Source: a virus
Lineage: Duplodnaviria > Caudoviricetes
Length of the DNA stretch: 64,000 nucleotides
Reading direction: 5' to 3' (one strand)
IMG/VR virus record: IMGVR_UViG_3300042691_031247
Shown here: positions 1 through 16,674 of the stretch, one piece after another
Layout of the letters: every line of letters starts with the position of its first letter
How positions within the stretch are numbered: position 1 is the stretch's first letter
Notes under the pieces: model-generated
Databases searched by the model: none
Seen by the model: the letters and a program-made list of their open reading frames with translations, nothing else
Told to the model about the DNA's origin: nothing
Translations under genes and position numbers: made by a program

Positions 1-1060
1 CGGTGGCGCCTTGCGGTCCGGTCGCGCCTGTAGCGCCTGTGTTGCCGCACGGCCCTGTAGCGCCCACGGGACCTGTTTGACCGACAGCGCCGGTCTGGCC
101 TGTAACACCGGTCGGGCCTCTGGCGCCGGTTGCTCCCACTGGGCCAACAAGTCCTGTCGCGCCAGTCGCGCCGCGCGGACCAACTTGCCCTTGCGGGCCT
201 GTCTGTCCGATTAAACCAGCCGGGCCTGTGACGCCCGTCGCGCCGCGTGGTCCCACCGCGCCGGCTTGTCCAGTAGCGCCTGCTGGTCCAATTGGTCCGG
301 TCGCGCCTGTGGCGCCCTTGTCGCCTTTGACGCCAGAAACGCCGCGGGGTCCCGCTGCGCCCGCCGGTCCGACTGGACCCGTGGCGCCGGTCGCGCCTGT
401 AACGCCCGTAGCGCCCGTTGCGCCTTTCGCTCCGGTTGAGCCGGTCACGCCAGTCGCGCCGCGCGGACCAACCGGGCCAGTAGCGCCGGTCGCTCCTGTT
501 GCGCCAGTAGCACCTGTTGCGCCAGTGACACCTGTTGCGCCGCGCGGTCCGGTCGGACCTGTCGGACCTGTTACACCAATCGGTCCGCTAGGTCCTGTAA
601 CGCCGCGATCACCTTTATCGCCTTTTGCGCCGTTGGCGCCGGCAGTACCTGCGACGCCGGTCGCGCCGCGCAAGCCGGTTACACCTTGGTCACCTTTGTC
701 GCCCTTGTCGCCCTTGTCGCCCTTGTCGCCAGTGCAGCCGGTCGGGCCCATTTCGCCCTGTGGGCCAATAATGCTGAAACCGGGGAGACCCTGAATACCC
801 TGATCGCCTTTATCGCCCTTGTCTCCCTTGTCGCCCTTGTCGCCTTTAAGTCCGCGCTCGCCGGGTAAACCCGGGAGGCCCATAAAGCCTTGTGGTCCGC
901 GGGCGCCGGGAACCCCCTGATCTCCTTTATCGCCCTTGTCTCCCTTGTCGCCCTTGTCGCCTTTATCGCCTTTAGCTCCTTGATTGCCCGTGTCGCCTTT
1001 ATCGCCTTTAGCTCCTTGAGCGCCCGGTCCGCCGGTTGGGCCTTGCGGCCCCGGCGGACC
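1..1060 (-). repeat. Collagen-like Gly-X-Y coding repeat (~115 triplets, continues beyond the window)
   Basis: GDK/GAK/GPQ triplets at ~690-1060, then GAT/GPT/GPV triplets. One interruption seen (GFS-II-GPQ). Confidence 0.95.
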
Positions 1061-4000
1061 GGGTACGCAACTACCACCACCACCACCGGCGCCACTGCCA
1101 GACGGGCATGTAGTGGTGTTTAAATTGATATCAATGTTGAGCTGGTCGCCATCGACAGTAACTGTACCGCTACCCAAACCAGACGGGTAAATGGTCACCG
1201 TGCCGCCGGCAATTTCGCATCTGGGAATCCACAGGTATGGTTCGAGTTTAAATTTGCAATCGCCGAGATCTGTAACCAAGATCTCCGCTCGCGGCTCCTC
1301 ATCACACCCGACAATCAACGCGCGACCTACGCTACCCTCGATTTGCGTCTGGCAAACCGGTACGCCAATGCTGATGTTCAGGTCATAAGAACACTGTGGC
1401 GGCTCATCTGGCGAGCCGCCGGGAGTAACGGTCGGCGTGACGTAACCGTTACCGTACAGATACGATGACTGCACAACGTCTACGTTTAACGTAATAGTCG
1501 GGCAGGGCGGCGGGGGGCATTTTGGAATCCACAAATACGGCGTTAATTTAAACTCGCAAAGATCTAGCTGCTCGACCAAAATCTCGGCGCGGGGCTCAAT
1601 GCCGCAACCGGTTAATACCATGCCTTCGCCGCCCTGAATTTTTGTCAGACACGGTTTCGGTATCCCGAGGTATAGCGGCAGTACAACTTCGCAGTAATAG
1701 CCGGGATCAAAGTTAAAGATTGGCGCGCCGGAGAACGCATACGGGTCTGCTTGCGGCGGCAGAGTCTGCATATCAACAATTAGTGAAACTATTGTGCATG
1801 GTGGTTTCGGAATTTGAATGAATAGGTCAAACTCAACTTCGTAGCAACAGACTGGTGGCTCGTTGGTGCCGCGTTTTTCGTCATACTCGGGGCACTTTTT
1901 GATCTCAAACGAAAATTTTGGTGCAACGTCATAACCAACTTCGTGGTCTGTGCGTTTAACGCGTACTTCGGTGCACGGCGGCCGAGGCGTCGGAATGTCG
2001 ATGTGGATGTCGAATAAAAAGTTGCATGAGCCCGGGTCGTTACATGTTGCCGGCGTTGACACGGCAAGCAAGTTAAAAAAGCTGGGCGTATTATTGAGCC
2101 GACCAGCCGGGCCGTCTTTATAGTGGCTGTTGACCGTTAAAAAGCGCGAGAGAATCGGGCAGCGCGGCCGAGGAATCGGGACGAAGATTTCAATTTCAAT
2201 TTCAAAGTCGCAGCGTTCCGGCTGATCGCACCCGGCTGCGGGTGTGATTGTTTTGATAATCTCAAACCGCGACTGCCCGTCTGCGCAACCGGTACCAGCA
2301 AAACCGGTTTTGACAGTAAACAGTTTTTTAGTTAGGTCGATGCACGGCGGCGGCGGGATTGGGATAACAATCTCTAACTCGATATCAAAATCACACGTGT
2401 CTGGTGTGGTGCAGTCGCCCGGCGTCACGCGCGGTGTAATTTCAAACCGATTTGACTTGCCTTGTACGCACGGAGAATCACTAAAACCTGTGGATACTTC
2501 AAATTTTGTGACGTTAAGGTTTGGACACGGCGGCTTGGGAATAGGAATATCGATCGTCAAATCGATATTGAATTCGCACTGATCTGGGTTGTTGCAGTCG
2601 CCGGGGACATGGCTTGTGGTGATTTCAAACTTGGATGTGCCCGTAGAGCAATTTTGCTCGTCGTAATGTACGGATACTTCAAACGTCCGCGCGTTGATGA
2701 TCGGGCATGGTGTGCGCGGAATCGGCACGACGATTGTGAGATCTAGGTCAAACTCACATGTGTCGGGTGTGGTGCAGTCGCCGGGCGTTCGGCGGGATGT
2801 GATTTCAAACGTAGAACCACCTTGCACGCACGATGAGTCACTAAACCCGGTTTTAACTTCAAACGTTTTACGGTTGATGATCGGGCATGGTGTGCGCGGA
2901 ATCGGTACGATGATTTCTAGTTCGATATCAAATATGCACTGGTCGGCGTTGTTACAGTCGCCGGGTGTGTGGTTTGGCGTAATTTTGAATGAAGACGAAC
3001 CCTGCACGCACGACGAGTCACTAAACCCAGTTTTTACTTCGAGCGTCGGCGCGTTAATAATCGGGCACGGTGGACGCGGAATCGGTACGACAATCTCTAA
3101 TTCAAAGTTAAACTCGCACTGGTCAGCGTTGTTGCAGTCGCCCGGCGTGTGGTTTGTTGTGATCTCAAAGCGGTTGGCGCCGGTTAGGCAATCAGAATCT
3201 GAAAACCCAGATGTGACGCTAAACTTTGTTGCGTTGATGAGCGGGCACGGCGTCCGCGGAATCGGTACGACAATCTCAAGCTCAAAGTTAAACTCACACT
3301 GATCGGCGTTGTTACAGTCGCCGGGAGTATGATTCGTCGTGATCTCAAAACGGTTGTCGCCGGTTAGGCAGTCAGAATCTGAAAAACCAGATGTGACGCT
3401 AAACTTTGTTGCGTTGATTGCTGGACATGGTGTACGCGGGATCGGAACGACAATCTCAAGCTCAAAGTTAAACTCGCACGTATCTGGCGTGTCGCAGTTG
3501 CCGGGTATATGCGCCGTTGTGATTTCAAAGCGATTTGTACCCTCGACGCAATCGGAATCGGCAAACCCGGACGAGACGCTAAAATTTGGCGGGTTTAGCG
3601 TGGGGCACGGCGTGCGCGGGATCGGAATATTGATTTCTAGGTCAACGTCAAACGAGCACTGATCGGCTGTGTCGCAGTCGCCGGGGGTATGTGTCGGCGT
3701 GATTCGGAACTCCGACACGCCCTGTCCGCAGCTATCGCCTGCAGGCTCGGCGCCGGCAAGTGTAGACGTGGTTAAGCCGGAGCTGACAACAAACGTTGTT
3801 GTGTTGATGATCGGACACGGCGTTTTGGGTACCGGGATTTTGAGATCTAAATCGATGACAAATTCGCAGTCGTCGGGACGATTGCAGTCGCCCGGCGTGA
3901 TGATTGGGGTAATGCGAATTTCGCTGCGGGGTGTAACGCAGTCTTGATATCCAACCTCTAAACCAAACTCACCCGCAGTTAACGTCGGGCACGGAATGCG

Positions 4001-4324
4001 CGGCACTGGCACATTGATATCTAAGGTGACATCGTACCGGCACGGGTCGATATCTTGCCGCGTAATCGTCAGTTCGTTTTTTGGCGGCGGGCAACCGTCA
4101 TCACCCTCGTTGACAAAGTTAACGCCAATGGATGTCAGCGTGGAAAAATCGGGGCACTGCAGCCCGACCTCTGTAGGCGGCTCGCGCGGGATGATTGGCG
4201 ACTGGCAGCCGAAAATTGGTGGCGGCAGCGGCTCTATTTCGCATACATCGGAAATGAAGTCAAAATCCGCCTTGGGGACGGATTCAATCGGGCACTGCGA
4301 GTCTTTAAAAAGATTTTCAGCCAT
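1..4324 (-). CDS. Giant tail-fibre-like protein (>=1441 aa, 3'-partial): N-terminal Cys/Pro-rich ~60-aa beta repeats followed by a collagen (Gly-X-Y) domain
   Basis: ATG at 4324 lies 1 nt after the TAA of the upstream gene. Manual translation of most of the frame ([23 protein letters not shown]...[15 protein letters not shown]...GATGPQGAT) showed no stop before the window edge. It is missing from the ORF track because it has no stop in the window. Confidence 0.88.
2200..3950 (-). repeat. Tandem 180-bp (60-aa) coding repeats, consensus like [60 protein letters not shown]
   Basis: The PGDC anchor recurs at 2594, 2774, 2954, 3134, 3314, 3494 and 3674 (exact 180-bp spacing). Flanking units are at 2411 and 3884, and degenerate units continue to ~1200. 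Confidence 0.93.
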
Positions 4325-4325
4325 G

Positions 4326-5588
4326 TTATGTGCAGTTGACTTGCGCGTTCGGTTTTTTCTGGACTGTAATTTGACCGTCGTCGAGCAGGATATTTACGCC
4401 CGCTCCGCCGATTAGATTAACATTTGTACCGCCAACGCCGTTGATAGATGAAATTGTTTCGCAGCAGCGCGGGCCGCCGCTAAAAAATGCCAACACAGAC
4501 TGAACGTCCGGCGGCATGTCTTTTGGAAAATCTTCAAACTCGCCAGTGGGTTGAATCGACACTTCGCCCGTACCGCTGATGACCTCTTCATAAAGTGGGG
4601 TAAAAATCACCTTTGCCGAGCGTACCCACGTTTTATTGTTCCACGTGTAGTAATAAGCCTCGTAGTATGGCGGCGGTGGCGGATCACCGGGCAGCTGTAT
4701 TAGATCTGATTTCCAGCCATACGTATCGCCGATTTTGTTACCGGCGCACACTGCCGGTAACAAGGCGAGAAGCTGAGTTGCAGTGGGCGGGTTTTCTCCG
4801 TGAATATCGAACGCCTCGACAAAGGTTGTCGGTTTAACTAGCCCGAGCGGTAGAGTTTCGTCGGGAAATAGCGGCAATTCTCCGGCGTACTCGCAAAGCT
4901 CGGCGCTTGTTTCTCCGACACCCGCGCCTTTAAACGCGGTAACGGTCAGTTCGTTTGCGCGGTCTGTTTGTGTAATTAAACAGTTGTAGCCTTCTTTTAA
5001 GCGAATATCACCTTTCATACATCGCGCGTTTACAACAATCGGGCGATTGTCGTTTGTGCTGGGCTCGTCACATTCGGGTACACGCACGCGCGCGTAGTTA
5101 CCGACACTGATTGACCGCAGATACGCTTTGTTTAGGTTTTGAATGCGACTGGGCTCGATTTGGTAATCGTTTGGTTGCAGCGCCCATACGCCGCCAGAAG
5201 ATGCCGCCGTAAATGCCGCAGTGAGAGCATCGAGCGGACCAGTAACTAAAAACCCAGACCAAATCGGCTCGGTGGCGCATTCGTTTTCTGTGTCGGCGGC
5301 TGACTCACCGTGTTCGAGCGCCCATTCGCCGTCGTCGTCGTGCCGTGTGAACGATATTGTTTCCGTACTAGCGTCTGTACTGAATACGAATTCAAAAATG
5401 CTGCCCGTTTTTTTAATTGCCGAGAGCCACACTGTATGTTGCGTTTCGTCATAGTGTGCGTCGAGCCCCATGATAAAACCAGCGTCTAAGACGGCACTGG
5501 TTGGCAGTGCGGGCAGCGTCATTGGCTTATTGTAAATAAACGGATACGCGCGGTATTCGTTATCGTTGTAAAATCCGGGACGAGGCAT
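4326..5588 (-). CDS. Baseplate/fibre-associated paralog 1 (RxYP...INGV family)
   Basis: 420 aa. N-terminal [12 protein letters not shown] and C-terminal [13 protein letters not shown] motifs are shared with the four neighbouring genes. Located at the distal end of the tail module. Confidence 0.6.
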
Positions 5589-6394
5589 TAGACAACACTC
5601 CTGCCAACCGTATCAATAACGATTGTCTCGCCGTCGGCGTAAACGCGCAACACATTGTTATTGACAGGCGGTATTTCGCGGCCTGCAACATTCGGCTGGT
5701 CGGTCGCGGTAAATGTGAAATTACCAAACTCGTCTGGTCCGCAGCCGTTAATCGTTTTCAGATATTGTTTGTTAGGGAAGTCTGCCCCTTGTTGCGGCTC
5801 GCACAGAAACCGACGAAATAGGGGCACGCCGATGATATCAATACGAATGACACTTGGACCGTCTTGACGCAACACCACACCCTGATCGCCCACGAGCCAT
5901 ATGTCCCCAGTTAAAAACTGTTTTGTCTCTGGGCGAATCGCCCGTACACCCGGCTCATTCGCTGGAATAACAACGCTGCTTACAAACTCAGTTTGGTCGA
6001 TGTCGAACGGGTACGAGCCGTTGCCCCAGCCAGAAAACCTCGCGAGCGCCGTCGGGGATGACAGCAGCATCCCGGCCGGGCGGCCGTACTGATCTGCAAA
6101 TAACAGCAACCCGTCGGCCGGCGGGCTCAGCGGGTTATACGTCGACGTAACGCGGACGCTTAATTCTTCGTCGCCCACGTTGATTGTGACGCTTTGCGGC
6201 GCTATTACGATGGACGAAATGTATACGCGCTGATAACCACCAATAATAAAAAACGACGCGTCAATAAACGTGTCAGGCGCAATTTGAATATTTTCTGCTG
6301 CGTCGCTTTGAAGCCCAGCGGAGTCGGCAAACGGGTAACGCGACGCCTCTTGCTCGTCACGAAACTCTGGAAATAGGATACGTGTGCCGGCCAT
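5588..6394 (-). CDS. Baseplate/fibre-associated paralog 2
   Basis: 268 aa, with EQEASRYPF and LKTINGCGPDEFGNF motifs. Stop/start overlaps with neighbours. Confidence 0.6.
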   Translation of the reverse strand: MAGTRILFPEFRDEQEASRYPFADSAGLQSDAAENIQIAPDTFIDASFFIIGGYQRVYISSIVIAPQSVTINVGDEELSVRVTSTYNPLSPPADGLLLFADQYGRPAGMLLSSPTALARFSGWGNGSYPFDIDQTEFVSSVVIPANEPGVRAIRPETKQFLTGDIWLVGDQGVVLRQDGPSVIRIDIIGVPLFRRFLCEPQQGADFPNKQYLKTINGCGPDEFGNFTFTATDQPNVAGREIPPVNNNVLRVYADGETIVIDTVGRSVV

Positions 6395-8124
6395 TACTGC
6401 ACCACAAATTTGTTAAAGAATGTTGATGCTTGGTTTGTAAACAGACCAATTGTTCCGGTGACGTCGCCGGGATTGTTGAGGCTAGCTGTTCCGCTTACTG
6501 GGTGCGCGCCGTCAAGTTCTGCAACGGAAAACGACACCGCAAGATTGCTACCGTCTAACGAAAGACTGGCATACATGCGATACCACGTGTTTACCTTTGC
6601 GTTGTAATTAACTGACAGTTCGTCAACAAAAACACTGCCGTTGTATCGAAGCACGCGTACTTTTCCGCGCGTGCTGTCAATGAGCACCACAACGTATCGT
6701 GTTACAACTTGCCCAAGCTCTAGCGTTTGCACATAGTTCAGTACGAGCCCGCCGTTTCGCGCAGCGCCATTTGTGCCAAGTTTAAATTCCCCCATGACCG
6801 ACTTGTTGAGCGCCCAGTCGGTGGCGCAATTTTTTAACACGGCGACATTGGTGCCGCCGATACCCGTTGCGACGTATGTGCCGTGGTTTGTCAGCGTGGC
6901 TCCAATCTCCGGCGAGAATTCGCCCGGCGAGCAGTTACCGCAGATAGGCGGCGCCATCGTCTCTTGCGGCGCAAACGCACCTGTTTTGGTAACAAAATGC
7001 GCGCTGGGCTGGCACGACCCGAAATCAATACACAGCGGTAGCGGCATGCACGCGTATTCTGGCGGATCCAATGTTTCGTCAACGACGATGTCTATCGCGT
7101 CAGTTGGGTCTGGCCAGCAGTACTCATCAAGAACGATATCGGTGTCGGCGTAGTTGGAGCCATCCCACCTATAGACGTTGTTTGTGTCAAACGCCAGATA
7201 AAGTTGATTGAGTTCGCCGGCCGGCGGAAACGAGGCGCGGTTTGCGTACACAGTAATGTTTTCGCCGGTTAGCTCGCAGCAAAGGTCTTTAAACTCTTGT
7301 GGCGGCTTTGGTTTGTTTGCGTCACATACCGCGTCAAGCTCAGTAGTTGTGACAATGTTTGCGCCGCCGCAGTTCTCAAAGTTGAGCGCGGTGAACCCGT
7401 CAAAAATAATATTGATGTTGCCGTCACAGTTTGGTGCGACACCGTTGATTGTTTCAATCGGTGTTTTCGGGCACGTTCCGCTTTCGGGCCGCTGCGCGCA
7501 CGAGCCGAGAAACGTTGACAGCGGGTTGTAATCACCTGTAACCAGTGCGCTATCAAGCCGGAAAACAATTGCGGGATACTCAACCGAGTCATACTGAATG
7601 GTTTCGTATTTAGCGGTTACAGGCGACGTGCCGATAACGTTGACCACGCCCTGCAACGACGTGCCAAGATTGATCTTGCCGATTGTCGGGATCGGAAGCG
7701 GGCGGTATGGGCGCGCGCTGCGCGGCTGTACAAGTGTTTGGCGCGCCGTGCTGTACCTGCCGACAAAAGGAGTGTCTACGCCGGGCCCGAATACCACCCA
7801 GCCCGACACAGCCTCAGCAAGCGGCGTGATCGGGTAGTTCACATATGGCGCCGCGGGCTGCGGAACAGAAACTGCGCATACGGTTTGTCCGGCGTCGTCA
7901 ATGTTGTTTACAGCGCCAAACACCACAGTGACAATTCCAGCAGAGACCGTGATTCCTTGCACGTATAAATATTCGCCCAAGCTGCGTGGAAAACGAATAT
8001 GGCAATCAACAATGATATCTTCACGGATAAACGCACCGCGGTCGTCAACACCCGTTGAAATATCATCAAGCGGGTATCGTCGCGTGGATTGGAGGTTGTA
8101 CCAGTTCTGGTTGCGAATAGACAT
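6394..8124 (-). CDS. Baseplate/fibre-associated paralog 3 with a C-terminal ConA/LamG-like beta-sandwich (possible receptor-binding domain)
   Basis: 576 aa, with WYNLQSTRRYPL and IETINGVAPNCDGNI motifs. The C-terminus (NTWYRMYASL...GTIGLFTNQASTFFNKFVVQ) resembles lectin/DUF1080-like folds. Confidence 0.6.
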   Translation of the reverse strand: MSIRNQNWYNLQSTRRYPLDDISTGVDDRGAFIREDIIVDCHIRFPRSLGEYLYVQGITVSAGIVTVVFGAVNNIDDAGQTVCAVSVPQPAAPYVNYPITPLAEAVSGWVVFGPGVDTPFVGRYSTARQTLVQPRSARPYRPLPIPTIGKINLGTSLQGVVNVIGTSPVTAKYETIQYDSVEYPAIVFRLDSALVTGDYNPLSTFLGSCAQRPESGTCPKTPIETINGVAPNCDGNINIIFDGFTALNFENCGGANIVTTTELDAVCDANKPKPPQEFKDLCCELTGENITVYANRASFPPAGELNQLYLAFDTNNVYRWDGSNYADTDIVLDEYCWPDPTDAIDIVVDETLDPPEYACMPLPLCIDFGSCQPSAHFVTKTGAFAPQETMAPPICGNCSPGEFSPEIGATLTNHGTYVATGIGGTNVAVLKNCATDWALNKSVMGEFKLGTNGAARNGGLVLNYVQTLELGQVVTRYVVVLIDSTRGKVRVLRYNGSVFVDELSVNYNAKVNTWYRMYASLSLDGSNLAVSFSVAELDGAHPVSGTASLNNPGDVTGTIGLFTNQASTFFNKFVVQ

Positions 8125-8127
8125 TGT

Positions 8128-9738
8128 TTAACACGGCGCCTCTGTTTTACCTTCCGCGTTGCAGTGCAGCGTTTGAACCGTTTCTGTGATAGCGGGGAGC
8201 GGCGGTAAGTCGTCGTCTAAGTTGTTTCCGCAGTTTGTCAGGATGGGTTGAGTAGTACCCAAGTATGTGCCAGTTAGCGTGCCAGTCACGACATACGGTC
8301 CGCGCGCGCGTGTGTTTACGGCGGTAAGCGCCGCGGGATCGTATTGGTTAAATTTCACGCGAAATTGTACGTAGGCTGAGTCGCCGGGTTTTAACTGAGG
8401 AAACACGGCCGAATACTGAAAACCATCGCCAGCTACGGCGATACCCACAGCGCTGCCGCGAATACCCGGCGCGTACATTGCCGTGTATCCGCACTCTAAT
8501 TCTGGTCGAATTGCCACCGACGTCTGTGTTTCTGGATCGGCGACTACGAGATCGCCGCTAATAGACAGGTTTAGCGTCAAGCGCGTCGGCTCTACGCACG
8601 TTTGGCAGGGGTTGCACAACATCATAACGATGTCAAGATACGGGCAACGTTGCGGCACCATAAGCAGCCGCAACGGTCGCTGTACGCTACATGAGCGCTG
8701 GTCTAACCACCGCGCAATATTGTTTTCGTGCTCTGTGCGTACCTTCTCTGCGCGCTGCCCGATAAGTTTGTACCGGTAACTCGTCTCGTTCATGTATTTC
8801 GCGGTACTGGCATAATCATCGCAACCGCAGCACGGATCGCAATCCGCGCCGATTTGTTGATGCGCAGTTGTGGACGGGTTTACAGGGTATGGCGCAGCAA
8901 TGCCGACAGTCACGGGCCGGCGGACCCACAAGCAATCCGTCGCGCTGAGCCTAAAGTCTCCGCCGGTACCAGCTACGCCATTAATTTTTGTGATCGGTAC
9001 GGCTGCGCCTTCCGGGCACGCGCCGTACCGGCCCAGACCAGTCCCGGCTACAGCGCTAAAATTAACTTTTGTGATGTTACGAAAATTGTTTGTTTCAGCC
9101 GGCGTGTTTGTAATTTGTGTGCTGTAACCGTTTTCAAACGTAAACGCGCCTGAATACCGCGGCGATGTTGTCTGCCCGTTACGCACGCGCATCGACAATA
9201 GGCGCCGCGGCATTTTGTACACGGCGCGCTCATCTAATCGCGCGTTGGTCGGCGCAAGAAATTTGTCGTAGTTGCGCCGCGTGTCATCGTCTGTTTCTCC
9301 GCTGTCGTCGTCTGGCCATGTCGTGTGCGTGACGAGGCGGCATACCACGCGCGCGGTCTTCCACTCATAAATGCGATAATCGCTGCTCCACGCTTGGGCG
9401 TTAAACGCAGTCGGCTGTGTCGTGGTGTCTAGGATGACGCGATTATTTGCATCGACAACGACAATGTCAGCCGTATGAACAGGCGTAGGAAACCCGGTCG
9501 GCGGCGTGTTTTCAACGCATCCAACGCCGTATAGATATTTAATCCGCAACGGGTGGGCGGCCGGCGTTAACGCTGTGTTGTATTCGCCGTCATCGTCGTA
9601 GGCTAGATGCAGGTCGGCCAACAAGTATCGAATGTCGGCAGACGGCGCGACGAGCGGATAATCTAAGCCGCTCTGCGGTTGAACTACGCCGATGCCGGCG
9701 CGGCCGTTTTTTGATGTCTGAAAGTCGGGGCATGTCAT
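8128..9738 (-). CDS. Baseplate/fibre-associated paralog 4 with PCCGC motif, coiled coil and C-terminal beta domain
   Basis: 536 aa, with QSGLDYPL, ITKINGVAGTGGDF and CDPCCGC motifs. Confidence 0.58.
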   Translation of the reverse strand: MTCPDFQTSKNGRAGIGVVQPQSGLDYPLVAPSADIRYLLADLHLAYDDDGEYNTALTPAAHPLRIKYLYGVGCVENTPPTGFPTPVHTADIVVVDANNRVILDTTTQPTAFNAQAWSSDYRIYEWKTARVVCRLVTHTTWPDDDSGETDDDTRRNYDKFLAPTNARLDERAVYKMPRRLLSMRVRNGQTTSPRYSGAFTFENGYSTQITNTPAETNNFRNITKVNFSAVAGTGLGRYGACPEGAAVPITKINGVAGTGGDFRLSATDCLWVRRPVTVGIAAPYPVNPSTTAHQQIGADCDPCCGCDDYASTAKYMNETSYRYKLIGQRAEKVRTEHENNIARWLDQRSCSVQRPLRLLMVPQRCPYLDIVMMLCNPCQTCVEPTRLTLNLSISGDLVVADPETQTSVAIRPELECGYTAMYAPGIRGSAVGIAVAGDGFQYSAVFPQLKPGDSAYVQFRVKFNQYDPAALTAVNTRARGPYVVTGTLTGTYLGTTQPILTNCGNNLDDDLPPLPAITETVQTLHCNAEGKTEAPC

Positions 9739-9741
9739 ACG

Positions 9742-10683
9742 TCACCCCGTTGAGCAGCCGGAGTCGCCGAGCTGGCTGCCCAACACGACCAGACTCATCT
9801 GGGTTACTTCAGACCCGAGACGTGTAATGAAATTTTGTAATGTCATAACGCCGTCACCAAAACGATTAATCTGATCGACAATGGCGTCAAGCTCAGTACA
9901 CCCGCAGCACGGCTGCGCGCACGTATCAGCAAACTTTAAACCGTTACTCATCGGCGTAATTTGCACGCAGTCATCGGGCGCAAGAATAAAGTTGCCGTCC
10001 GTGCTACACACCCCGTTAATGCAGCGAATGCAGTCGCCGATTTCGGGCGTTTCGCAATAGCACTCTTCGTTGAGGTTTGTGCCGGAGATTGCGTCAAAAA
10101 TGATTTCTGTTTCTGTGGCGAACGCTACTGCCGTGATCCGCACATTGTTGCCGGCGACCAGCGTCACATCTCCGTAAATCGGCGCGCTCAGTTCACCGTT
10201 GTTCGACACGCGGAGCCGTGTTACGGCGCGCAGCATCGGCCGGATAGTGTCGGGCTCTAACTCGCCGTCGGTAAAAGTAAATTCATACTGGCCGGGCGGC
10301 AGCTGATCGACCTCGTCAAGATTGCCGAGTACAACGCGGCCAACACAGTCGTCAAAGTTATCTACGCCGCCAAGCGCATATGACCGGTTTGGCTGATAAT
10401 TGCTGCGAATAACGTTTGCTGACGCGACGTCGACCGCGGTGCCGTTGTCGTCGTACCCAATAGTGATGTTAAACCCGGTCGGGGCAATTAGCAGGCTTTT
10501 GATAAAAAAACGGTTCGGCGCAAAAGCCAGACCAGAATGAATCGGCAGGTAGAGCGCGACAATAAAGCTGTCGGGCAGCCGAATAGTTCCAGTCGTATCT
10601 GTTTTGGTGGCGCGCTCTGTCAGCGGATATGACCGCTGAGAGTTATGGTTGAGCCACTGTAGATTCCAATTTCCGATGGGCAT
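9742..10683 (-). CDS. Baseplate/fibre-associated paralog 5 with PCCGC motif and C-terminal coiled coil
   Basis: 313 aa, with WLNHNSQRSYPL, IRCINGVCSTDGNF and CAQPCCGC motifs. Confidence 0.6.
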   Translation of the reverse strand: MPIGNWNLQWLNHNSQRSYPLTERATKTDTTGTIRLPDSFIVALYLPIHSGLAFAPNRFFIKSLLIAPTGFNITIGYDDNGTAVDVASANVIRSNYQPNRSYALGGVDNFDDCVGRVVLGNLDEVDQLPPGQYEFTFTDGELEPDTIRPMLRAVTRLRVSNNGELSAPIYGDVTLVAGNNVRITAVAFATETEIIFDAISGTNLNEECYCETPEIGDCIRCINGVCSTDGNFILAPDDCVQITPMSNGLKFADTCAQPCCGCTELDAIVDQINRFGDGVMTLQNFITRLGSEVTQMSLVVLGSQLGDSGCSTG

Positions 10684-10699
10684 GGCGGCTCACCTAGTT

Positions 10700-12562
10700 T
10701 TATGTCGCGCTATAAACGATTCCCGTAACGCGCAATACGCCGATTTCGCCGTAGACGTTATCCTCGTTTCGACCGATGGTTACCAACACTGTGTCGCCCT
10801 CTTCAACGACAATTGGCGCACTCTCGCGCGTGATGACGTGATCAATAAACAAATTGGCGCTGGAATTAAACGTTAGCGGATTGTCTGCTGTTATAAGCTG
10901 TTCTCCGTCAATCGCCGTCAGCGCGGGCGCAGTTAAAACGCGCCGCGTCATATACAACGACGGCATTACCTTTCGATTTCCGTTTGGAAAAGCTCCGCCG
11001 TCGCGCCCGAACAGCTGCACACGAATTTTCATTTCAAGATTGTCGCCAAGGTTGCTTCCGGGGACATTAAAACGCATACGTAGTAGCGCCGCCTGCCCGC
11101 CCGGAAAACCAAGGTAAGGAATATCCATGTACAACCGCTCGACGGTATCGCTTAGCCGAATGATTTGCGGCGCGATCTCGCGTTCGACGAGCTGATCGGT
11201 GTAGTCAATTTTCAGGATACCCTGATGCAGCGTAATTGGGCTTGTCGTGGTGAGATTGAACTGTTGTTTTTCTTGTGTCGTCAGCGTACGCGGGCTGGCA
11301 CGCGAGCCAGTGATCGCTAGTTGGTTAGACGTTGTAAACGCGCCTTCTGCCAACCAGCCTCTCGTTAACTGGTGGCGGTTAATTACGCTTTTAAACGCCT
11401 GCCCGCCCATAGCCTCAGCCGCTGCAATCTGCAGGTCTAGATTAAGCTGAAGATCGCCCGTAGACGCCGGGTCATCAGCGCAGTTCGATATCGCGATCGG
11501 GCTGTTGATGGTCTGAGCCGCTGGCGTGGGTTGTGTTTCGGCCGCCGTGCCGTCTACGTCTTTTACAAGACTCGTGACGACGTTGCGGTCATTGCCGACG
11601 AGCATACGCAAATACACAACTGATACGCGCATGTTCTCGTAGCGGGGACACTCGCCTGTCTCGCTCGGGTGTTCTGTCGGAGCTGCAAACGGAACGTCGT
11701 CTTCGCAGTCACTCATCCACCAAATGCCGTTTGTGTCGCAGACCGCCAAGCCAGTAGAACCGAGCGGGATTTCTGTAGCGCCGACATGATCGACGCCCTT
11801 GTCCCACAGCATTGCGACAGACTGAATCGGTAGCGGGGGCCACACGTTCGAGAGCGCCGAATGCTGACTTAAGTTGTAGCCAAACGCTGCGCCTGTCGGC
11901 GCTTTGCCGTTAAAGGTTGGATGACTTGCGGGCAGCCAGCCGGGATCATTTGCGGTCGCAGCCTGTAGCGGAACAAGATCAAAGCGGTAGTGCGTGTGCT
12001 CGTCGATAAAGTCGCGAATGTGCGGCATGACTACCACACGCGGTACAGTCGTGCAGCTATCCTTCGGGCCCTGTACGTGGCACACTGTTACTGTGACAGG
12101 CGGCTTTTGTTTAACAAGTTTGCCGGCGTCGGTAGCTGATAAGTAATAGCGGCCCGGCGTGATCGACCCCGCGATCGCGTTTGCTAAGTCAGGAATCTCG
12201 ACGATGCCGCGCAGCACAATGTCGCCAAGCGTCTCGGAGCGCTTTCGCAAACAGATGCCAACGCAATCTGACGACGGCTGCACAAGCAGCACTTGCGTTT
12301 CAGGATCAGACGCAACAGCGGCAAGCGCGGGCTCGTAGCGCTTTTCTACCCAGTTCCAGTACACAGGCTGACCGGGCAGCACTGAGCTGCAGATCGTCGC
12401 GTCGCTGTCGACAAGTACGCGGCCGAGGGCAGCAGCGTCAAGTCGGTCTTTTAGATAGTCAGTGCGGTCTTCGAGCGTGCGGTCAGGGCGTGAAACGACC
12501 CCGGCCTGTACAGGCTCTCCCGGATTGACATGTTTAAGGTTATGCAGCCAGTTACCGGACAT
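10700..12562 (-). CDS. Tail fibre / baseplate-attached fibre protein
   Basis: 620 aa. The N-terminal GEPVQAGVVSRPDRTLEDRTDYLK resembles myophage fibre baseplate-attachment segments (N..L..RT.YLK). A GQPVYW / GRYYLS..AG.L beta module follows. Confidence 0.62.
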   Translation of the reverse strand: MSGNWLHNLKHVNPGEPVQAGVVSRPDRTLEDRTDYLKDRLDAAALGRVLVDSDATICSSVLPGQPVYWNWVEKRYEPALAAVASDPETQVLLVQPSSDCVGICLRKRSETLGDIVLRGIVEIPDLANAIAGSITPGRYYLSATDAGKLVKQKPPVTVTVCHVQGPKDSCTTVPRVVVMPHIRDFIDEHTHYRFDLVPLQAATANDPGWLPASHPTFNGKAPTGAAFGYNLSQHSALSNVWPPLPIQSVAMLWDKGVDHVGATEIPLGSTGLAVCDTNGIWWMSDCEDDVPFAAPTEHPSETGECPRYENMRVSVVYLRMLVGNDRNVVTSLVKDVDGTAAETQPTPAAQTINSPIAISNCADDPASTGDLQLNLDLQIAAAEAMGGQAFKSVINRHQLTRGWLAEGAFTTSNQLAITGSRASPRTLTTQEKQQFNLTTTSPITLHQGILKIDYTDQLVEREIAPQIIRLSDTVERLYMDIPYLGFPGGQAALLRMRFNVPGSNLGDNLEMKIRVQLFGRDGGAFPNGNRKVMPSLYMTRRVLTAPALTAIDGEQLITADNPLTFNSSANLFIDHVITRESAPIVVEEGDTVLVTIGRNEDNVYGEIGVLRVTGIVYSAT

Positions 12563-12586
12563 CCTTGTCCTCCGGCAGTTAGTTGA

Positions 12587-13219
12587 TTACAGGAATGCGA
12601 CATCCCACGTGATGCCGATCTGAGATGACGCTTCCTTGGTCACCTGATGCTCGCTATCAAATACTGTGCGCGCAAATACAACGTCCTTAGACCGGTCGTT
12701 AATCGCCGGCGCAGCCACGAGGGCGGCGGCATATACGCGGCTGTTCGTCACGTTGCTGAAACGCCGCTCCTCGCCGCCATAGACCACTCGCGCTTCTGCG
12801 GTCTGCGCAAAAAATGTTAATTGATTGCCCGACTGATTGACGGGCAGATTTGCTTCATACCCCGACGACACGCTTAGCGCCGGTTCAATAGTGAGCGGCA
12901 CCCGAATGAAATTACGCGACGACGAATCGGCGAGCGAGTTGTAGTACGTGATGTCTACGTTGCGACTAAACGTCGGCGTGGAAATTTGAATCCCCGGGTC
13001 GACATTCTCGTATTCGATGTACATGGCTGAGATGTGGTAATCCAGCCGGTCGGGCTGGCGGCGGTACCCGAGTTGTTTCGCGGCGATAAAACCCCAGCCG
13101 TACTGGATCTGGTTGGACTGCGAAAACAGCGGCAACTTCAAACCAGTCTTCTCGTCGACGCGCCACACCGACACGTGTCCGCGTACGCCAAAAGCTGGGG
13201 TAATGTTATCGGCAGCCAT
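12587..13219 (-). CDS. Baseplate wedge / tail-collar-fibre-attachment-like protein
   Basis: 210 aa. Pattern G.V.V..VD..TG......NQI..G at the N-terminus and FARTVF....K.....I.W.V.F at the C-terminus, typical of this myophage family. Confidence 0.6.
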   Translation of the reverse strand: MAADNITPAFGVRGHVSVWRVDEKTGLKLPLFSQSNQIQYGWGFIAAKQLGYRRQPDRLDYHISAMYIEYENVDPGIQISTPTFSRNVDITYYNSLADSSSRNFIRVPLTIEPALSVSSGYEANLPVNQSGNQLTFFAQTAEARVVYGGEERRFSNVTNSRVYAAALVAAPAINDRSKDVVFARTVFDSEHQVTKEASSQIGITWDVAFL

Positions 13220-13228
13220 GTGTTGTCC

Positions 13229-14956
13229 TTATTGGCATGTTCCAGATACAAGTCGCGCCGTCGCGCCCAGATCACTGACTAATGATACCGGCACGGTGTC
13301 GGTTTGGGGGTCCATACCGGTGAAACGCTGCACGGTCTCCGCCGTCAAGTGTTCGGGGTTTATGCTATCTTTATCGGCCGTCAGCTCAAAAATCGCAATC
13401 ATGGCCGTGTGTGGCGGCAATAATTGACGTAGATGCCTAATATTGTACAGTCCCAGCTGATTTAACCCTAGCGCGTTCACATAAATTCGTACTACAAACA
13501 CGTTGTTTCGTAGCACGTTTTCCACGAGAAAACGCAGCGGATTAATAGTCTTCGGCAACTGCGACGCGGTCGGTTCCGTGCCGGCGTTTACGCGCTTGTC
13601 TAGCAGGTGCGCAAGCGTGCCGATTTTTAACTTTGGCGCGCAATCGGGCTGCGATTTGCGTAGCTCCGCTGCCTGCACGCCCCGGGCATGTACCTCGTCA
13701 AAAAACTGCTCAATGTCCGCCGGGTACCCGCCGAGCCGAAATTTTACATACGTGTAACCACTTGGATGTGTCGTGTTTACTTCGAGCGGAACGAGTTTGT
13801 TTTCAAACACGATGTCGCCATAAAAGCACGACGCCAAAAATCCGCTATCGACAGCAATGGCGGCGATTGTTTTTCTAACCGGTTGACACTGCTCGTCGTT
13901 TGGATCTACAAGCAGCTCTTCTTCGCTTTCGGTTGTGAGCGCGTCCCACGCGTTGCTCGACAAGATGTTATTCGGCGGAGGGCAGCACAATACGCTTTGC
14001 TCTGGCGCCCGCGCATAAGAGTTACCGACAAAAAACTCGTGCACGTCGACGCCGTACACAAGAGGCGTGCCGGCCGTTACGCGCTGTTCGACCGCTACGC
14101 GCGGTACCGCGGTCTCTGGAAAGCGATAGACCGCTTTGTCGGTAACTATTAATAATCCTCGTGCGTCGTTGTCTACGCGCTCGACAACCTCTTCTGGTTC
14201 GACGCTAATTGGGACGCCGCAGATAGCTGCAATAGCGGCGTCAAGAATTGCCGCCGTCGCGCCGCCTTCTACCAGACCAGAGATGACAGCGTTGGTGAGA
14301 TCCTTGTAGCCCTGACTTGTTCGGAGCTTTATACCGACGGCGTATGCAAATTGGTTGAAAATGTTGTTGTAGTCAAACTTACCGCAGAACGCCCACAACG
14401 TAAGTTCTTCGTCGTCCGCCGTGTCTGCAGCCGGTCGTTTCGTGAACACCGGGTTTTCAAACGGGTCTTTGGCAAAAATCAAAGCGCCGCGCTCGACGTC
14501 GATAAGAAAGTCGAGGTTTTTGCTGAGGACGCCTGTCGGAAACGTGATGCGATTAAACAGTTGCGCGGCGTCTACAAGCCCGGCCGGCAGCGGGAAAGAA
14601 AAGAACGGGGCGTTTACATTCGCGGCGTCAAACTGTAAGCCGCCATCAAACACAGCGGACGGGTCGCGATCAAACCGCGCGATTGTTGTCCGCGCGGAGT
14701 TGCGCTCGGATTTTTTCAAAACAACAGGGGTAAGCTTCTCCGTGTGAAATAACGGAATATCAAATCGGCTTAGCGCTTCGATGGTCTCGATCAGGTTTTG
14801 ATACGTCTGGTTTACGACGTGTGCTGTCGCGTCGGCATACGAATGCACTTGATCAACGCCGGTGTAGAGGCGTGACCAGAAGCTACCAAGCGCCGCAATT
14901 AAATTGCGACTGCGGTCAAAGTCTGATCCGGGATATACAAACTCAGGCTTTTTCAT
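13229..14956 (-). CDS. Baseplate wedge subunit, P2 gpI / T4 gp7-like
   Basis: 575 aa, directly downstream of gpJ. Contains YKDLTNAVISGLVEGGAT..ILDAAIAAICG and a C-terminal LLPPHT, equivalent to the KPAHT motif. Confidence 0.68.
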   Translation of the reverse strand: MKKPEFVYPGSDFDRSRNLIAALGSFWSRLYTGVDQVHSYADATAHVVNQTYQNLIETIEALSRFDIPLFHTEKLTPVVLKKSERNSARTTIARFDRDPSAVFDGGLQFDAANVNAPFFSFPLPAGLVDAAQLFNRITFPTGVLSKNLDFLIDVERGALIFAKDPFENPVFTKRPAADTADDEELTLWAFCGKFDYNNIFNQFAYAVGIKLRTSQGYKDLTNAVISGLVEGGATAAILDAAIAAICGVPISVEPEEVVERVDNDARGLLIVTDKAVYRFPETAVPRVAVEQRVTAGTPLVYGVDVHEFFVGNSYARAPEQSVLCCPPPNNILSSNAWDALTTESEEELLVDPNDEQCQPVRKTIAAIAVDSGFLASCFYGDIVFENKLVPLEVNTTHPSGYTYVKFRLGGYPADIEQFFDEVHARGVQAAELRKSQPDCAPKLKIGTLAHLLDKRVNAGTEPTASQLPKTINPLRFLVENVLRNNVFVVRIYVNALGLNQLGLYNIRHLRQLLPPHTAMIAIFELTADKDSINPEHLTAETVQRFTGMDPQTDTVPVSLVSDLGATARLVSGTCQ

Positions 14957-14958
14957 AA

Positions 14959-16674
14959 TCAGCGCGTCCAGCCGGCGGAGACTACGGATACCGATACATC
15001 TTGCGGGCTTGTTAAGAACGCGGTGGTGCGTCCGGTGACGAGCCGCGCAACGTCGTCGGGGATTTGCAGAATCGTGTTATCACGCACAAAAGCCGTGCTG
15101 CCGTCTGGCCGGCGAATACGGCCAAACATATCAATACCCCCGAGCGCTTGCTGCGCTGTGAGGTACTGGTGCGCTGCCGTACCGATAAGCGACGCGTGCA
15201 GCTGGCCAGAGAAACCAACACCGGCGACAGCCTTACTTACGGCCGCCTTGATCGCTTCAATATCTGGCGTCGGGTCAGCCGCGTTCTTACGAATTTCAAA
15301 CGCAATTTTTGTAAAGCACGGGATCGGAGCTTTGACCAGTACGTCTGCGGCGCGGGAGCGCGTTTCGCGGGACGCCATGTAATCTTGAAGCTCCGCGATC
15401 AGCGGGAGCCCGGCCGTAGTGATTGAGTACAGCCGTTTTGTTTGTCCCGGCGTCAGCGTCGGGTTTGGCTGGATGTCCGTGTTTACAAACCGGATCGTGG
15501 CTGTCTGGTAGCGTGTATATGCGCTTTCAGTTAGATACAGGATGTCAGGAATGAAGTCGAAATCAGAGAAGTCAACATTCCGCTCGTCGCTTAGCACAGA
15601 GTAATTGACTGGTAATGCCGCCGCGGGATTTACGATGCCGACAACTTCATAAAAACCGGGCGCAAGGTCACGACCGATTGATACCTGCCAGATGGTTCCT
15701 GTCGGTGTGCCGCCCACCAAGTCGCGCTCGTCGCACGGACCGGTCGCGTTTTGCTGGGGCGAATACGGCCCGATATACGTCGCTTCTAACAGGTGCTCGC
15801 GTTCTTGCGCATACGCGTTGGTGTGCGCATAGATATCCACTTTGCCGCCACCGGAGATCGGAAAGAGGGAGTGCTGATCGCGCTGCTGCTCCGCGTCTCC
15901 GCAGCCGAGCACAGACAGGTGCAGCGTATTAGCAAAAACGGGTTGCGTTTTAATGGCCGCCATGTAGCTCTGCCGGCTGCCGATCGTTTTTGCGGCTAAA
16001 CCGGTAGACAGGCGCGTAAGGTATTCGGCGTTGGTCGCCGGGTCGCGCCCGTCGATAAAGTCGGCACTGGCATAAAGATCTACAACGTTGCTGATCGAGC
16101 CGCGGCTGTTTAGCCGTGTGCGGCGGCGGATGTTACCGGCATCACCCACGACGCTAGCAATGACAGTAATTGTCGCGGCGTACGTGCCGTCACCGACAGC
16201 CACCATTTTGCGCTGATCTGGTTCCGTGGCCGGCAGCAGCGGGTCTGTTGGGAACACCACAAAGTTTTGTGTCGGACTAAAAGTAATGTCGCCGTCCTCG
16301 ATACCAAAAATCGCCGCGGTTGTGATCTCCGTGCGAATGTCAGAGTTGAAGACAACTGTGACATAACCCACCGCGGGGGAACCGTTGTCGCGCGCTACAT
16401 TGAAATTAGACAGTACCTGATCGACGATATCGGTGTCGGCGAGATCTGGATTCTGTGTGATGCTCAGCAAGCTCTGACTCTGCAGCACGCGATCAACGTT
16501 TTCTTGAATTGCCGCGTTTAACAGTCCGTCAAAGTACAGTACGAGATCGTGGAACACACCACGCGACAGCTCGACCTCGGGATGACGTTCGGCCATCAGC
16601 TGCGATAACGTCGCAACCATCGCCTGTACTTTTTCAGGGTTAAGCTGTTTGAGGCTGGAAATGGCAATCGGCAT
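14959..16674 (-). CDS. Baseplate J-like protein (P2 gpJ / T4 gp6)
   Basis: 571 aa. Contains VDQVLSNFNVARDNGSPAVGYVTV, ASVVGDAGNI and FIDGRDPATNAEYLTRL, the canonical gpJ pattern. Confidence 0.9.
   Translation of the reverse strand: MPIAISSLKQLNPEKVQAMVATLSQLMAERHPEVELSRGVFHDLVLYFDGLLNAAIQENVDRVLQSQSLLSITQNPDLADTDIVDQVLSNFNVARDNGSPAVGYVTVVFNSDIRTEITTAAIFGIEDGDITFSPTQNFVVFPTDPLLPATEPDQRKMVAVGDGTYAATITVIASVVGDAGNIRRRTRLNSRGSISNVVDLYASADFIDGRDPATNAEYLTRLSTGLAAKTIGSRQSYMAAIKTQPVFANTLHLSVLGCGDAEQQRDQHSLFPISGGGKVDIYAHTNAYAQEREHLLEATYIGPYSPQQNATGPCDERDLVGGTPTGTIWQVSIGRDLAPGFYEVVGIVNPAAALPVNYSVLSDERNVDFSDFDFIPDILYLTESAYTRYQTATIRFVNTDIQPNPTLTPGQTKRLYSITTAGLPLIAELQDYMASRETRSRAADVLVKAPIPCFTKIAFEIRKNAADPTPDIEAIKAAVSKAVAGVGFSGQLHASLIGTAAHQYLTAQQALGGIDMFGRIRRPDGSTAFVRDNTILQIPDDVARLVTGRTTAFLTSPQDVSVSVVSAGWTR

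What the first reader, a model, noticed from the sequence alone, without database searches (positions are those of the whole stretch)
1..4324. Hidden >1440-aa ORF: disulfide/metal-pattern 60-aa repeat stalk fused to a long collagen helix
Seen: one minus-strand frame open from ATG 4324 to the window edge, absent from the ORF track. It holds about 10 clear and several degenerate 60-aa units with four regularly spaced Cys and a PIPRxPCP motif, then a GGGGS linker and >=350 aa of Gly-X-Y. Known: collagen fibres occur in some phages and giant viruses. Inference: a very long beaded-stalk-plus-collagen appendage whose Cys repeat I cannot assign to a known family.
Basis: partly seen in the sequence, partly recalled or inferred. 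Interest (0 to 1): 0.72.

Follow-up and report, generated by a model that had tools for sequence, protein, structure and literature searches.

The report
Disulfide-stitched trimeric phage tail fibre
A large freshwater phage encodes a very long tail fibre whose shaft is built from an undescribed 60-residue repeat, and both evolution and structure prediction suggest its three chains are stitched to each other by a ladder of about 80 disulfide bonds ahead of a 100-nm collagen rope.

Summary
Observation confirmed. The frame is open and ends 208 nt beyond the window: a 1510-aa protein near the end of the baseplate operon of a 198-kb freshwater myophage, probably of Planctomycetota. It has a 56-aa Cys head, 18 three-strand beta units (10 with four Cys), 118 Gly-X-Y triplets and a 66-aa helical cap. 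About 90 homologues were found; all seven loci fetched for the purpose show the same gene slot. Collagen is optional (36 of 64 full-length members). The repeat matches no Pfam, PHROG, NCBIfam or PDB entry. C2 of one unit co-occurs with C3 of the next (phi 0.87-0.92; 49 of 55 informative junctions). A homotrimer model (0.79, best control 0.00) places C1 against C4 of a neighbouring chain, and C2(n)/C3(n+1) on facing chains. Best reading: a trimeric fibre shaft locked by inter-chain disulfides. Nothing is shown experimentally; Cys4 metal sites are the main rival. Inter-chain disulfides in fibres are known (phage Milano), so this is a new variant of a known kind. The scan noted this repeat and its ladder before on related genomes; the inter-chain geometry is added here.

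The parts
1..4324 (-). Fibre gene, in-window part. Whole gene is G000:19042-14510, 1510 aa; it ends 208 nt left of the window
4157..4324 (-). N-terminal head, aa 1-56, with three Cys (11, 28, 40); putative baseplate anchor (inferred)
   Evidence: 95 of 104 homologue starts carry exactly three Cys in the first 48 aa
3992..4156 (-). Unit 1 (aa 57-111): has C1, C2, C4 but no C3; start of the ladder
2162..3991 (-). Units 2-11 (aa 112-721): ten four-Cys, three-strand units of about 60 aa
1976..2161 (-). Unit 12 (aa 722-783): has C1, C3, C4 but no C2; end of the ladder
1106..1975 (-). Units 13-18 (aa 784-1073): shorter, degenerate three-strand units; 13-17 keep C1 and C4
   Evidence: AlphaFold2 secondary structure, mean pLDDT 69.5
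1061..1105 (-). Gly/Ser hinge (aa 1074-1088) with one Cys
1..1060 (-). Collagen-like domain, 118 Gly-X-Y triplets (aa 1089-1444), Thr/Lys-rich at Y, with a conserved GPCG near its end. Followed outside the window by the 66-aa helical cap and by a second, 300-aa collagen gene (G000:14507-13605) with the same cap
4326..16674 (-). Upstream tail/baseplate operon of nine tightly packed genes, 2.5% Cys over the operon; includes the Baseplate J/wedge gene at 14959-16674
   Evidence: gene order kept in relatives

Best explanation
The protein is the shaft of a homotrimeric tail fibre of a contractile-tailed phage. The Cys head docks on the baseplate (inferred). Each 60-aa unit gives a three-stranded sheet; three sheets, one per chain, pack round the fibre axis, and 18 such layers stack into a rod. 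After the virion leaves the reducing cytoplasm, two kinds of disulfide lock the rod, both between chains: C1(n) to C4(n) of the neighbouring chain, and C2(n) to C3(n+1) of the neighbouring chain. That makes about 28 bonds per chain and about 84 per trimer. A Gly hinge leads to a collagen triple helix of about 100 nm, an optional length extender, closed by a short helical trimerisation or adaptor cap. The protein has no globular receptor-binding tip, so it works as a tough spacer, and binding is probably done by partners. Shown here: frame, architecture, gene context, Cys co-occurrence. Predicted: fold, trimer, inter-chain Cys contacts. Inferred: virion location, oxidation state, timing of oxidation, role.
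For: Context: the gene follows a Baseplate J operon in a genome with tail sheath and multisubunit RNAP, and sits in the same slot in every locus fetched, including the most distant. Collagen implies a trimer (established knowledge; PMC3368898). Trimer model of three units: score 0.79, best control 0.00; the mark was reached by 20 of 30 proteins solved as pairs of one chain and 1 of 23 solved as single chains (counts hold only roughly here); runs agree in at least 71% of contacts; pLDDT at least 82. Listed inter-chain pairs include C360-C403 and C420-C463 (fragment 68-111, 128-171), the invariant C1/C4 columns. The C2 loops of units 1-2 and the C3 loops of units 2-3 are in the interface, while the first C3 and the last C2, which have no partner in the fragment, are not. 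Covariation: C2(n) with C3(n+1) phi 0.92, against 0.63 for the same unit and 0.48 for the previous one; after dereplication 49 of 55 and 39 of 44 informative junctions follow the next unit. Some homologues gain an extra Cys on both sides of the same junction. In this protein C2 is in units 1-11 and C3 in units 2-12. Against metal: C2/C3 are lost together without His replacement (3 of 149 against 12 of 675) and CxxC is rare, 67 of 5098 Cys. The RNAP subunits and a 1628-aa protein have no Cys (chance about 1e-9 and 1e-10), also in relatives; Cys suppression marks ejected proteins that cross an oxidising periplasm (PMC11445570). Inter-chain disulfides in a trimeric fibre are seen in phage Milano (PMC10811340).
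Against: No experiment: no virion proteomics and no measured disulfides. I had contact lists, not coordinates, so S-S distances were not measured, and the C2-C3 inter-chain pairing is read from interface lists rather than from a listed pair. All four cysteines gather at the same unit junction, which would also suit a Cys4 metal site. Junctions are related by descent, so the covariation counts overstate independent events. C907 and C1007 (C2-like) have no C3 in the next unit. Monomer pTM is low (0.36 and 0.28). The genome has other fibre-like genes (G000:118-138 kb), so this one need not be the host-recognition fibre.
Confidence: 0.68

Rival explanations
1. Same trimeric fibre, but each junction is a structural metal site: C1(n) and C2(n-1) of one chain with C3(n) and C4(n) of the neighbouring chain bind one Zn or Fe, which would allow locking inside the cytoplasm.
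For: The four Cys converge at one junction between the same two chains in the model. Phage assembly takes place in a reducing cytoplasm. Metal ions on the axis of trimeric fibres are known from T4 gp37 and gp12 (His-based; own knowledge).
Against: 149 junctions keep only C1 and C4 with no His replacement, and one homologue has 18 such units in a row. Gains and losses come in pairs. CxxC is rare. Putative ejected proteins are Cys-free.
Confidence: 0.12
2. The units are beads with intra-chain disulfides (C1-C4 within a unit, C2-C3 to the next unit of the same chain); only the collagen and cap hold the trimer.
For: Covariation alone cannot tell intra- from inter-chain pairs. AlphaFold2 folds the monomer units at pLDDT 76.
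Against: A bare three-stranded sheet has no core; the hydrophobic face of strand 3 packs on the three-fold axis and C1-C4 are listed between chains. 28 of 64 full-length members have no collagen yet keep the stalk.
Confidence: 0.12
3. The protein is a virion appendage of another kind (collar whisker, or a strut that cross-links the baseplate or sheath), not a baseplate-anchored fibre.
For: No receptor-binding tip is seen; other fibre-like genes lie elsewhere in the genome; a second collagen with the same cap follows it.
Against: Fixed position at the end of the baseplate operon in all loci, the usual place of fibre genes (established knowledge).
Confidence: 0.08

Closest known systems
Collagen-like phage tail fibres (Pfam PF01391; PHROGs 6320, 5073, 819; E. 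coli O157 prophage EPclA, PMC3368898)
   Same: Long Gly-X-Y domain in a phage fibre, flanked by non-collagen domains, with a C-terminal cap where EPclA has a trimerisation domain.
   Different: All library matches lie in the collagen part; the 1017-aa stalk has none. EPcl collagen domains lack Cys; EPclA has a coiled coil where this protein has the beta repeat stalk.
Agrobacterium phage Milano short tail fibre gp31 and tailspike gp124 (PMC10811340)
   Same: Trimeric fibre with inter-chain disulfides (Cys29-67, 84-102, 127-144), N-terminal Cys bonded to the baseplate, and a Cys-rich virion (2.1% in structural proteins; 2.5% in this operon).
   Different: No profile similarity (probability 0.07%). 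Milano has two 40-aa hairpin-plus-helix beads and a jelly-roll tip in 300 aa; here 18 three-strand units, a bond that spans successive units, 6.2% Cys, collagen and no globular tip.
'3-beta domains' of Streptococcus thermophilus phage Tal extensions / Tuc2009 BppA junction module, PDB 5E7T (PMC9437275)
   Same: About 60-aa three-strand modules together with collagen-like linkers in a trimeric phage fibre.
   Different: No sequence match to the TP-778L Tal; 5E7T is not among the listed fold hits; those modules lack the Cys pattern and are mostly separated by collagen linkers rather than stacked 18 deep.
Unnamed Cys-free 38-aa three-strand module of phage fibres (e.g. Bifidobacterium phage Bbif-1 ADD65703; also inside the collagen of homologues P0044 and P0062)
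   Same: Three strands ending in hydrophobic-Pro-Arg; full-length profile alignment to the short two-Cys units, E 0.005, score 15.6 against a maximum of 5.8 in 100 column shuffles.
   Different: hhalign probability only 3%, and none with the 60-aa units; no cysteines. A lead for a possible ancestor, not shown homology.
Bacillus L-ENA endospore appendage (PMC11362473)
   Same: Robust beta fibre tipped by a trimeric BclA-type (collagen-like) ruffle; disulfide cross-linking of ENA fibres is from own knowledge.
   Different: A polymer of heptameric rings from separate subunits on spores; analogy only, homology not tested.

Membership tests
Collagen-like phage tail fibre | Long Gly-X-Y tract (PF01391 above cut-off) | tested here: met
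   170.9 bits, E 4e-51; 118 triplets
Collagen-like phage tail fibre | Encoded in a phage tail/baseplate module | tested here: met
   Baseplate J upstream, sheath in the window, conserved gene order
Collagen-like phage tail fibre | Homotrimer | tested here: inconclusive
   Predicted only: 0.79 against best control 0.00; mark reached by 20 of 30 true pairs and 1 of 23 single chains
Collagen-like phage tail fibre | Present in the virion as a fibre | not testable with these tools
   Uncultured phage; needs virion MS and EM
Collagen-like phage tail fibre | Distal receptor-binding domain | tested here: inconclusive
   Only a 66-aa cap follows the collagen; no family hit; Atlas hits below 0.9, mostly collagen/phage clusters
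Milano gp31-type disulfide-linked short tail fibre | Sequence or profile homology to gp31 | tested here: not met
   hhalign probability 0.07%, E 0.68; no tblastn hit in cultured phages
Milano gp31-type disulfide-linked short tail fibre | Inter-chain disulfides in the trimer | tested here: inconclusive
   Predicted inter-chain Cys-Cys contacts and paired gain and loss; bonds not measured
Tal 3-beta / BppA junction module | Sequence similarity to TP-778L 3-beta modules | tested here: not met
   No domain above 3 bits with three unit HMMs
Tal 3-beta / BppA junction module | Same fold as the 5E7T junction module | tested here: inconclusive
   Not among listed rows; best Z overall 3.2-3.6
G5-E repeat rods (SasG/Aap) | G5/E fold | tested here: inconclusive
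   Top VIA rows but Z 3.2 (rmsd 13, 163 aligned) and Z 3.6 (rmsd 4.0, 47 aligned), tied with unrelated folds; no G5 Pfam hit
Cys4 zinc-finger-type metal repeat | CxxC pairs or four constant ligands | tested here: not met
   CxxC 67 of 5098 Cys; two of four Cys are lost together without His. An unusual inter-chain site is not excluded

The most novel reading that the evidence does not exclude
The stalk is a new trimeric beta-rod fold in which every layer is covalently bound to the neighbouring chains and to the next layer, and the phage brings its own exported thioredoxin-like enzyme (signal peptide, WCKYC, present in all three near-complete genomes checked) to form or reshuffle these bonds in the periplasm of a planctomycete host at lysis: a phage-encoded oxidative maturation step for the virion.
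Probability: 0.12. Interest if true: 0.82.

Novelty: new variant of a known kind. Interest (0 to 1): 0.55.

Why it matters
It defines an undescribed fibre-shaft repeat with an unusually clear cross-linking rule that can be tested on a 190-aa recombinant fragment without culturing the phage. If right, it extends disulfide armouring of tailed phages from a few bonds (Milano) to a fully stitched rod whose length is tuned by unit number (about 7-26) and an optional collagen. That bears on how virions made in a reducing cytoplasm gain disulfides, and offers a modular, self-locking protein rod for materials work. It also marks a widespread freshwater phage clade, probably of Planctomycetota, whose phages are poorly known. 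It is not a new kind of system.

Tried and rejected
Pfam, PHROGs and NCBIfam: no hit for aa 1-1085; high scores of one homologue (P0082) to Bc2l-C_N, HAMP_N3 and others are sums over many weak repeats and were rejected. PDB sequences by phmmer and by profile: nothing. Foldseek and VIA against the PDB with two models: no match, best Z 3.2-3.6; this does not show that the fold is new. BFVD: only weak rows, best E 1.5e-5 and 2.6e-4 with TM 0.12-0.15, several being uncultured phage collagen fibres. ESM Atlas: no usable feature hit, TM below 0.5. Cultured phages: no tblastn hit for the stalk. GTDB genomes: no locus found with exact peptide patterns (low sensitivity). Erv/ALR sulfhydryl oxidase: not found in the genome. 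Same-unit C2-C3 pairing: rejected by covariation. A count of C3 in first units across homologues was unreliable because of parsing and was not used. Promoter and terminator scan: no more than chance. Sequencing runs: no RNA holder listed. Two paper searches for Cys-rich repeat fibres with inter-chain disulfides returned no paper.

Full report
Observation. The minus frame from 4324 has no stop in the window. The window is G000:14719-78718 of a 198,101-nt virus record (97% complete). The gene runs on to G000:14510 and gives 1510 aa. It starts 2 nt after the stop of the upstream gene and is followed after 2 nt by the next one. It is a normal gene that the window cut. Contigs from four other runs match pieces across it with no differing letters, and it occurs in freshwater metagenomes of many studies.

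Anatomy. Residues 1-56 are a conserved head with three Cys. Residues 57-1073 are 18 units. Ten have four Cys and are about 60 aa; unit 1 lacks C3; unit 12 lacks C2; units 13-18 are shorter. AlphaFold2 gives three strands per unit for both the regular and the degenerate part. A Gly/Ser hinge follows, then 118 Gly-X-Y triplets, about 101 nm at the usual 0.286 nm per residue (rise from own knowledge), then a 66-aa cap. The stalk is 6.2% Cys against 1.36% for the proteome. If the 13-14 residue strands run along the axis, the stalk is roughly 70 nm (estimate).

Context. Upstream lie nine tightly packed genes with a Baseplate J/wedge protein; a tail sheath and two RNAP genes are further along the window. 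The RNAP is closest to that of Salmonella phage Arash and Vibrio phages D181/D148/D69 at about 32% identity; in Arash it is the most detected virion protein (PMC10585845). The named cellular relatives of the phage's alpha-CTD repeat protein are all Planctomycetota, which hints at the host but does not prove it.

Family. 67 proteins were found in the word search and 92 in the exhaustive search, many on 100-210 kb contigs. Unit number runs from about 7 to 26. Of 64 full-length members, 36 have collagen (43-197 triplets) and 28 have none. The head is shared; the cap is found in 60 of 77 long members and in the downstream 300-aa collagen gene. Gene order is kept even for the most distant homologues. 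So the repeat stalk is the constant part and collagen is an add-on.

How the cysteines pair. C1 and C4 are invariant in the alignment. C2 and C3 come and go, and C2 of unit n tracks C3 of unit n+1: phi 0.92 against 0.63 and 0.48 for the alternatives. After dereplication at 50% and 40% identity, 49 of 55 and 39 of 44 informative junctions follow the next unit. Several arrays have an internal unit without C2 followed by one without C3, and five homologues gain one extra Cys on each side of the same junction. These events are not all independent, but they are of three different kinds (array ends, internal loss, paired gain). I ran this test before looking at earlier scan notes; two of them report the same ladder on a related 205-kb genome.

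Trimer model. Three copies of aa 293-482 scored 0.79 with a best control of 0.00; the mark was reached by 20 of 30 proteins solved as pairs of one chain and 1 of 23 single chains, counts that hold only roughly for a three-copy job; runs agree in at least 71% of contacts and pLDDT is at least 82. No like complex was found in the PDB, so a pass from memory is less likely. The hydrophobic face of strand 3 lines the three-fold axis. C360-C403 and C420-C463 (C1-C4) are listed as contacts between chains. The C2 loops of the first two units and the C3 loops of the last two lie in the interface, and the partnerless ones do not, which puts C2(n)-C3(n+1) between chains as well. The model and the covariation thus agree. 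For this protein that is 17 C1-C4 and 11 C2-C3 pairs per chain, about 84 bonds per fibre if all form.

Disulfide or metal. The four Cys meet at one junction, so a Cys4 site is possible. Against it, two of the four are dropped together at 149 junctions without His replacement, and CxxC is rare. The RNAP subunits and a 1628-aa protein contain no Cys, nor do their relatives at 54-91% identity. In N4-like phages this marks proteins that cross the periplasm (PMC11445570). Thiol oxidation therefore seems to matter in this phage's life. How the bonds form is open: air oxidation after lysis is the simplest route; host Dsb proteins or the phage's thioredoxin-like protein with a signal-like N-terminus are alternatives. 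No Erv oxidase was found.

Comparison. It works like a collagen-type tail fibre and meets that family's sequence and context tests. Its cross-linking resembles Milano gp31, whose trimer has three inter-chain disulfides (PMC10811340), but there is no homology. Three-strand modules with collagen linkers are described in streptococcal Tal proteins (PMC9437275), again without sequence match. A Cys-free 38-aa three-strand module in two homologues and in a Bifidobacterium phage fibre aligns weakly with the short units and may be the ancestor. No library or fold search assigned the repeat.

Verdict. A real, conserved, undescribed repeat family with a well-supported pairing rule and a plausible inter-chain geometry. 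It is a new variant of a known kind, untested experimentally. Interest 0.55.

Noticed in passing
window 52522-56925, 49662-51542, 21420-26306 (all minus): RNAP beta/beta'-N fusion (1467 aa), beta'-C (626 aa) and a 1628-aa protein have no cysteine at all, also in relatives; likely virion-packaged and ejected proteins. The RNAP even lacks the usual Zn-binding Cys.
   Followed up: partly
L006:1396-1764 (+), G000:103894-104262: Thioredoxin-like protein with a signal-peptide-like N-terminus and WCKYC, on the strand opposite to most genes; conserved in both other near-complete genomes.
   Followed up: partly
L001:13605-14507 (-): Second collagen gene (300 aa) right after the fibre, sharing its helical cap and the GPCG motif; it is kept even where the main fibre has lost its collagen (L009). 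Possible partner fibre.
   Followed up: partly
L001:7001-8128 (-): Protein of tandem RNAP alpha-CTD domains; named cellular relatives are planctomycete TPR/alpha-CTD proteins. A CsrA-like gene lies nearby.
   Followed up: partly
L001:15524-15642: Two runs hold a contig lacking 117 nt (13 triplets, in frame) of the collagen; a strain variant or a collapse of a 42-nt repeat.
   Followed up: no
L033:9751-11775, L035:14076-15965, L039:9894-12131: In three distant relatives a Glyco_transf_9 gene follows the fibre gene, hinting at glycosylation of tail parts.
   Followed up: no
L011:10001-17401: In this relative collagen is replaced by long Ser-rich tracts, and the next gene is an 876-aa Cys/Ser-rich protein with EGF-like CxC repeats.
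   Followed up: no
P0072, P0007, P0017, P0044, P0062: Homologues carry insertions: extra domains in the loops of the units (P0072, 3281 aa), a pectate-lyase-like beta-helix inside the collagen (P0007), and Cys-free three-strand repeats inside the collagen (P0044, P0062).
   Followed up: partly
G000:118059-138626 (L014, L015): A second cluster of fibre-like genes: an 846-aa collagen, a 3718-aa repeat-rich virion protein, and Mtd-type N-termini.
   Followed up: no
L001:12908-13186 (-): Small Big_1/invasin D3 Ig-like gene conserved downstream of the fibre in relatives.
   Followed up: no
window 21853-22212: 147-nt tandem repeat (2.5 copies) in the Cys-free 1628-aa protein.
   Followed up: no
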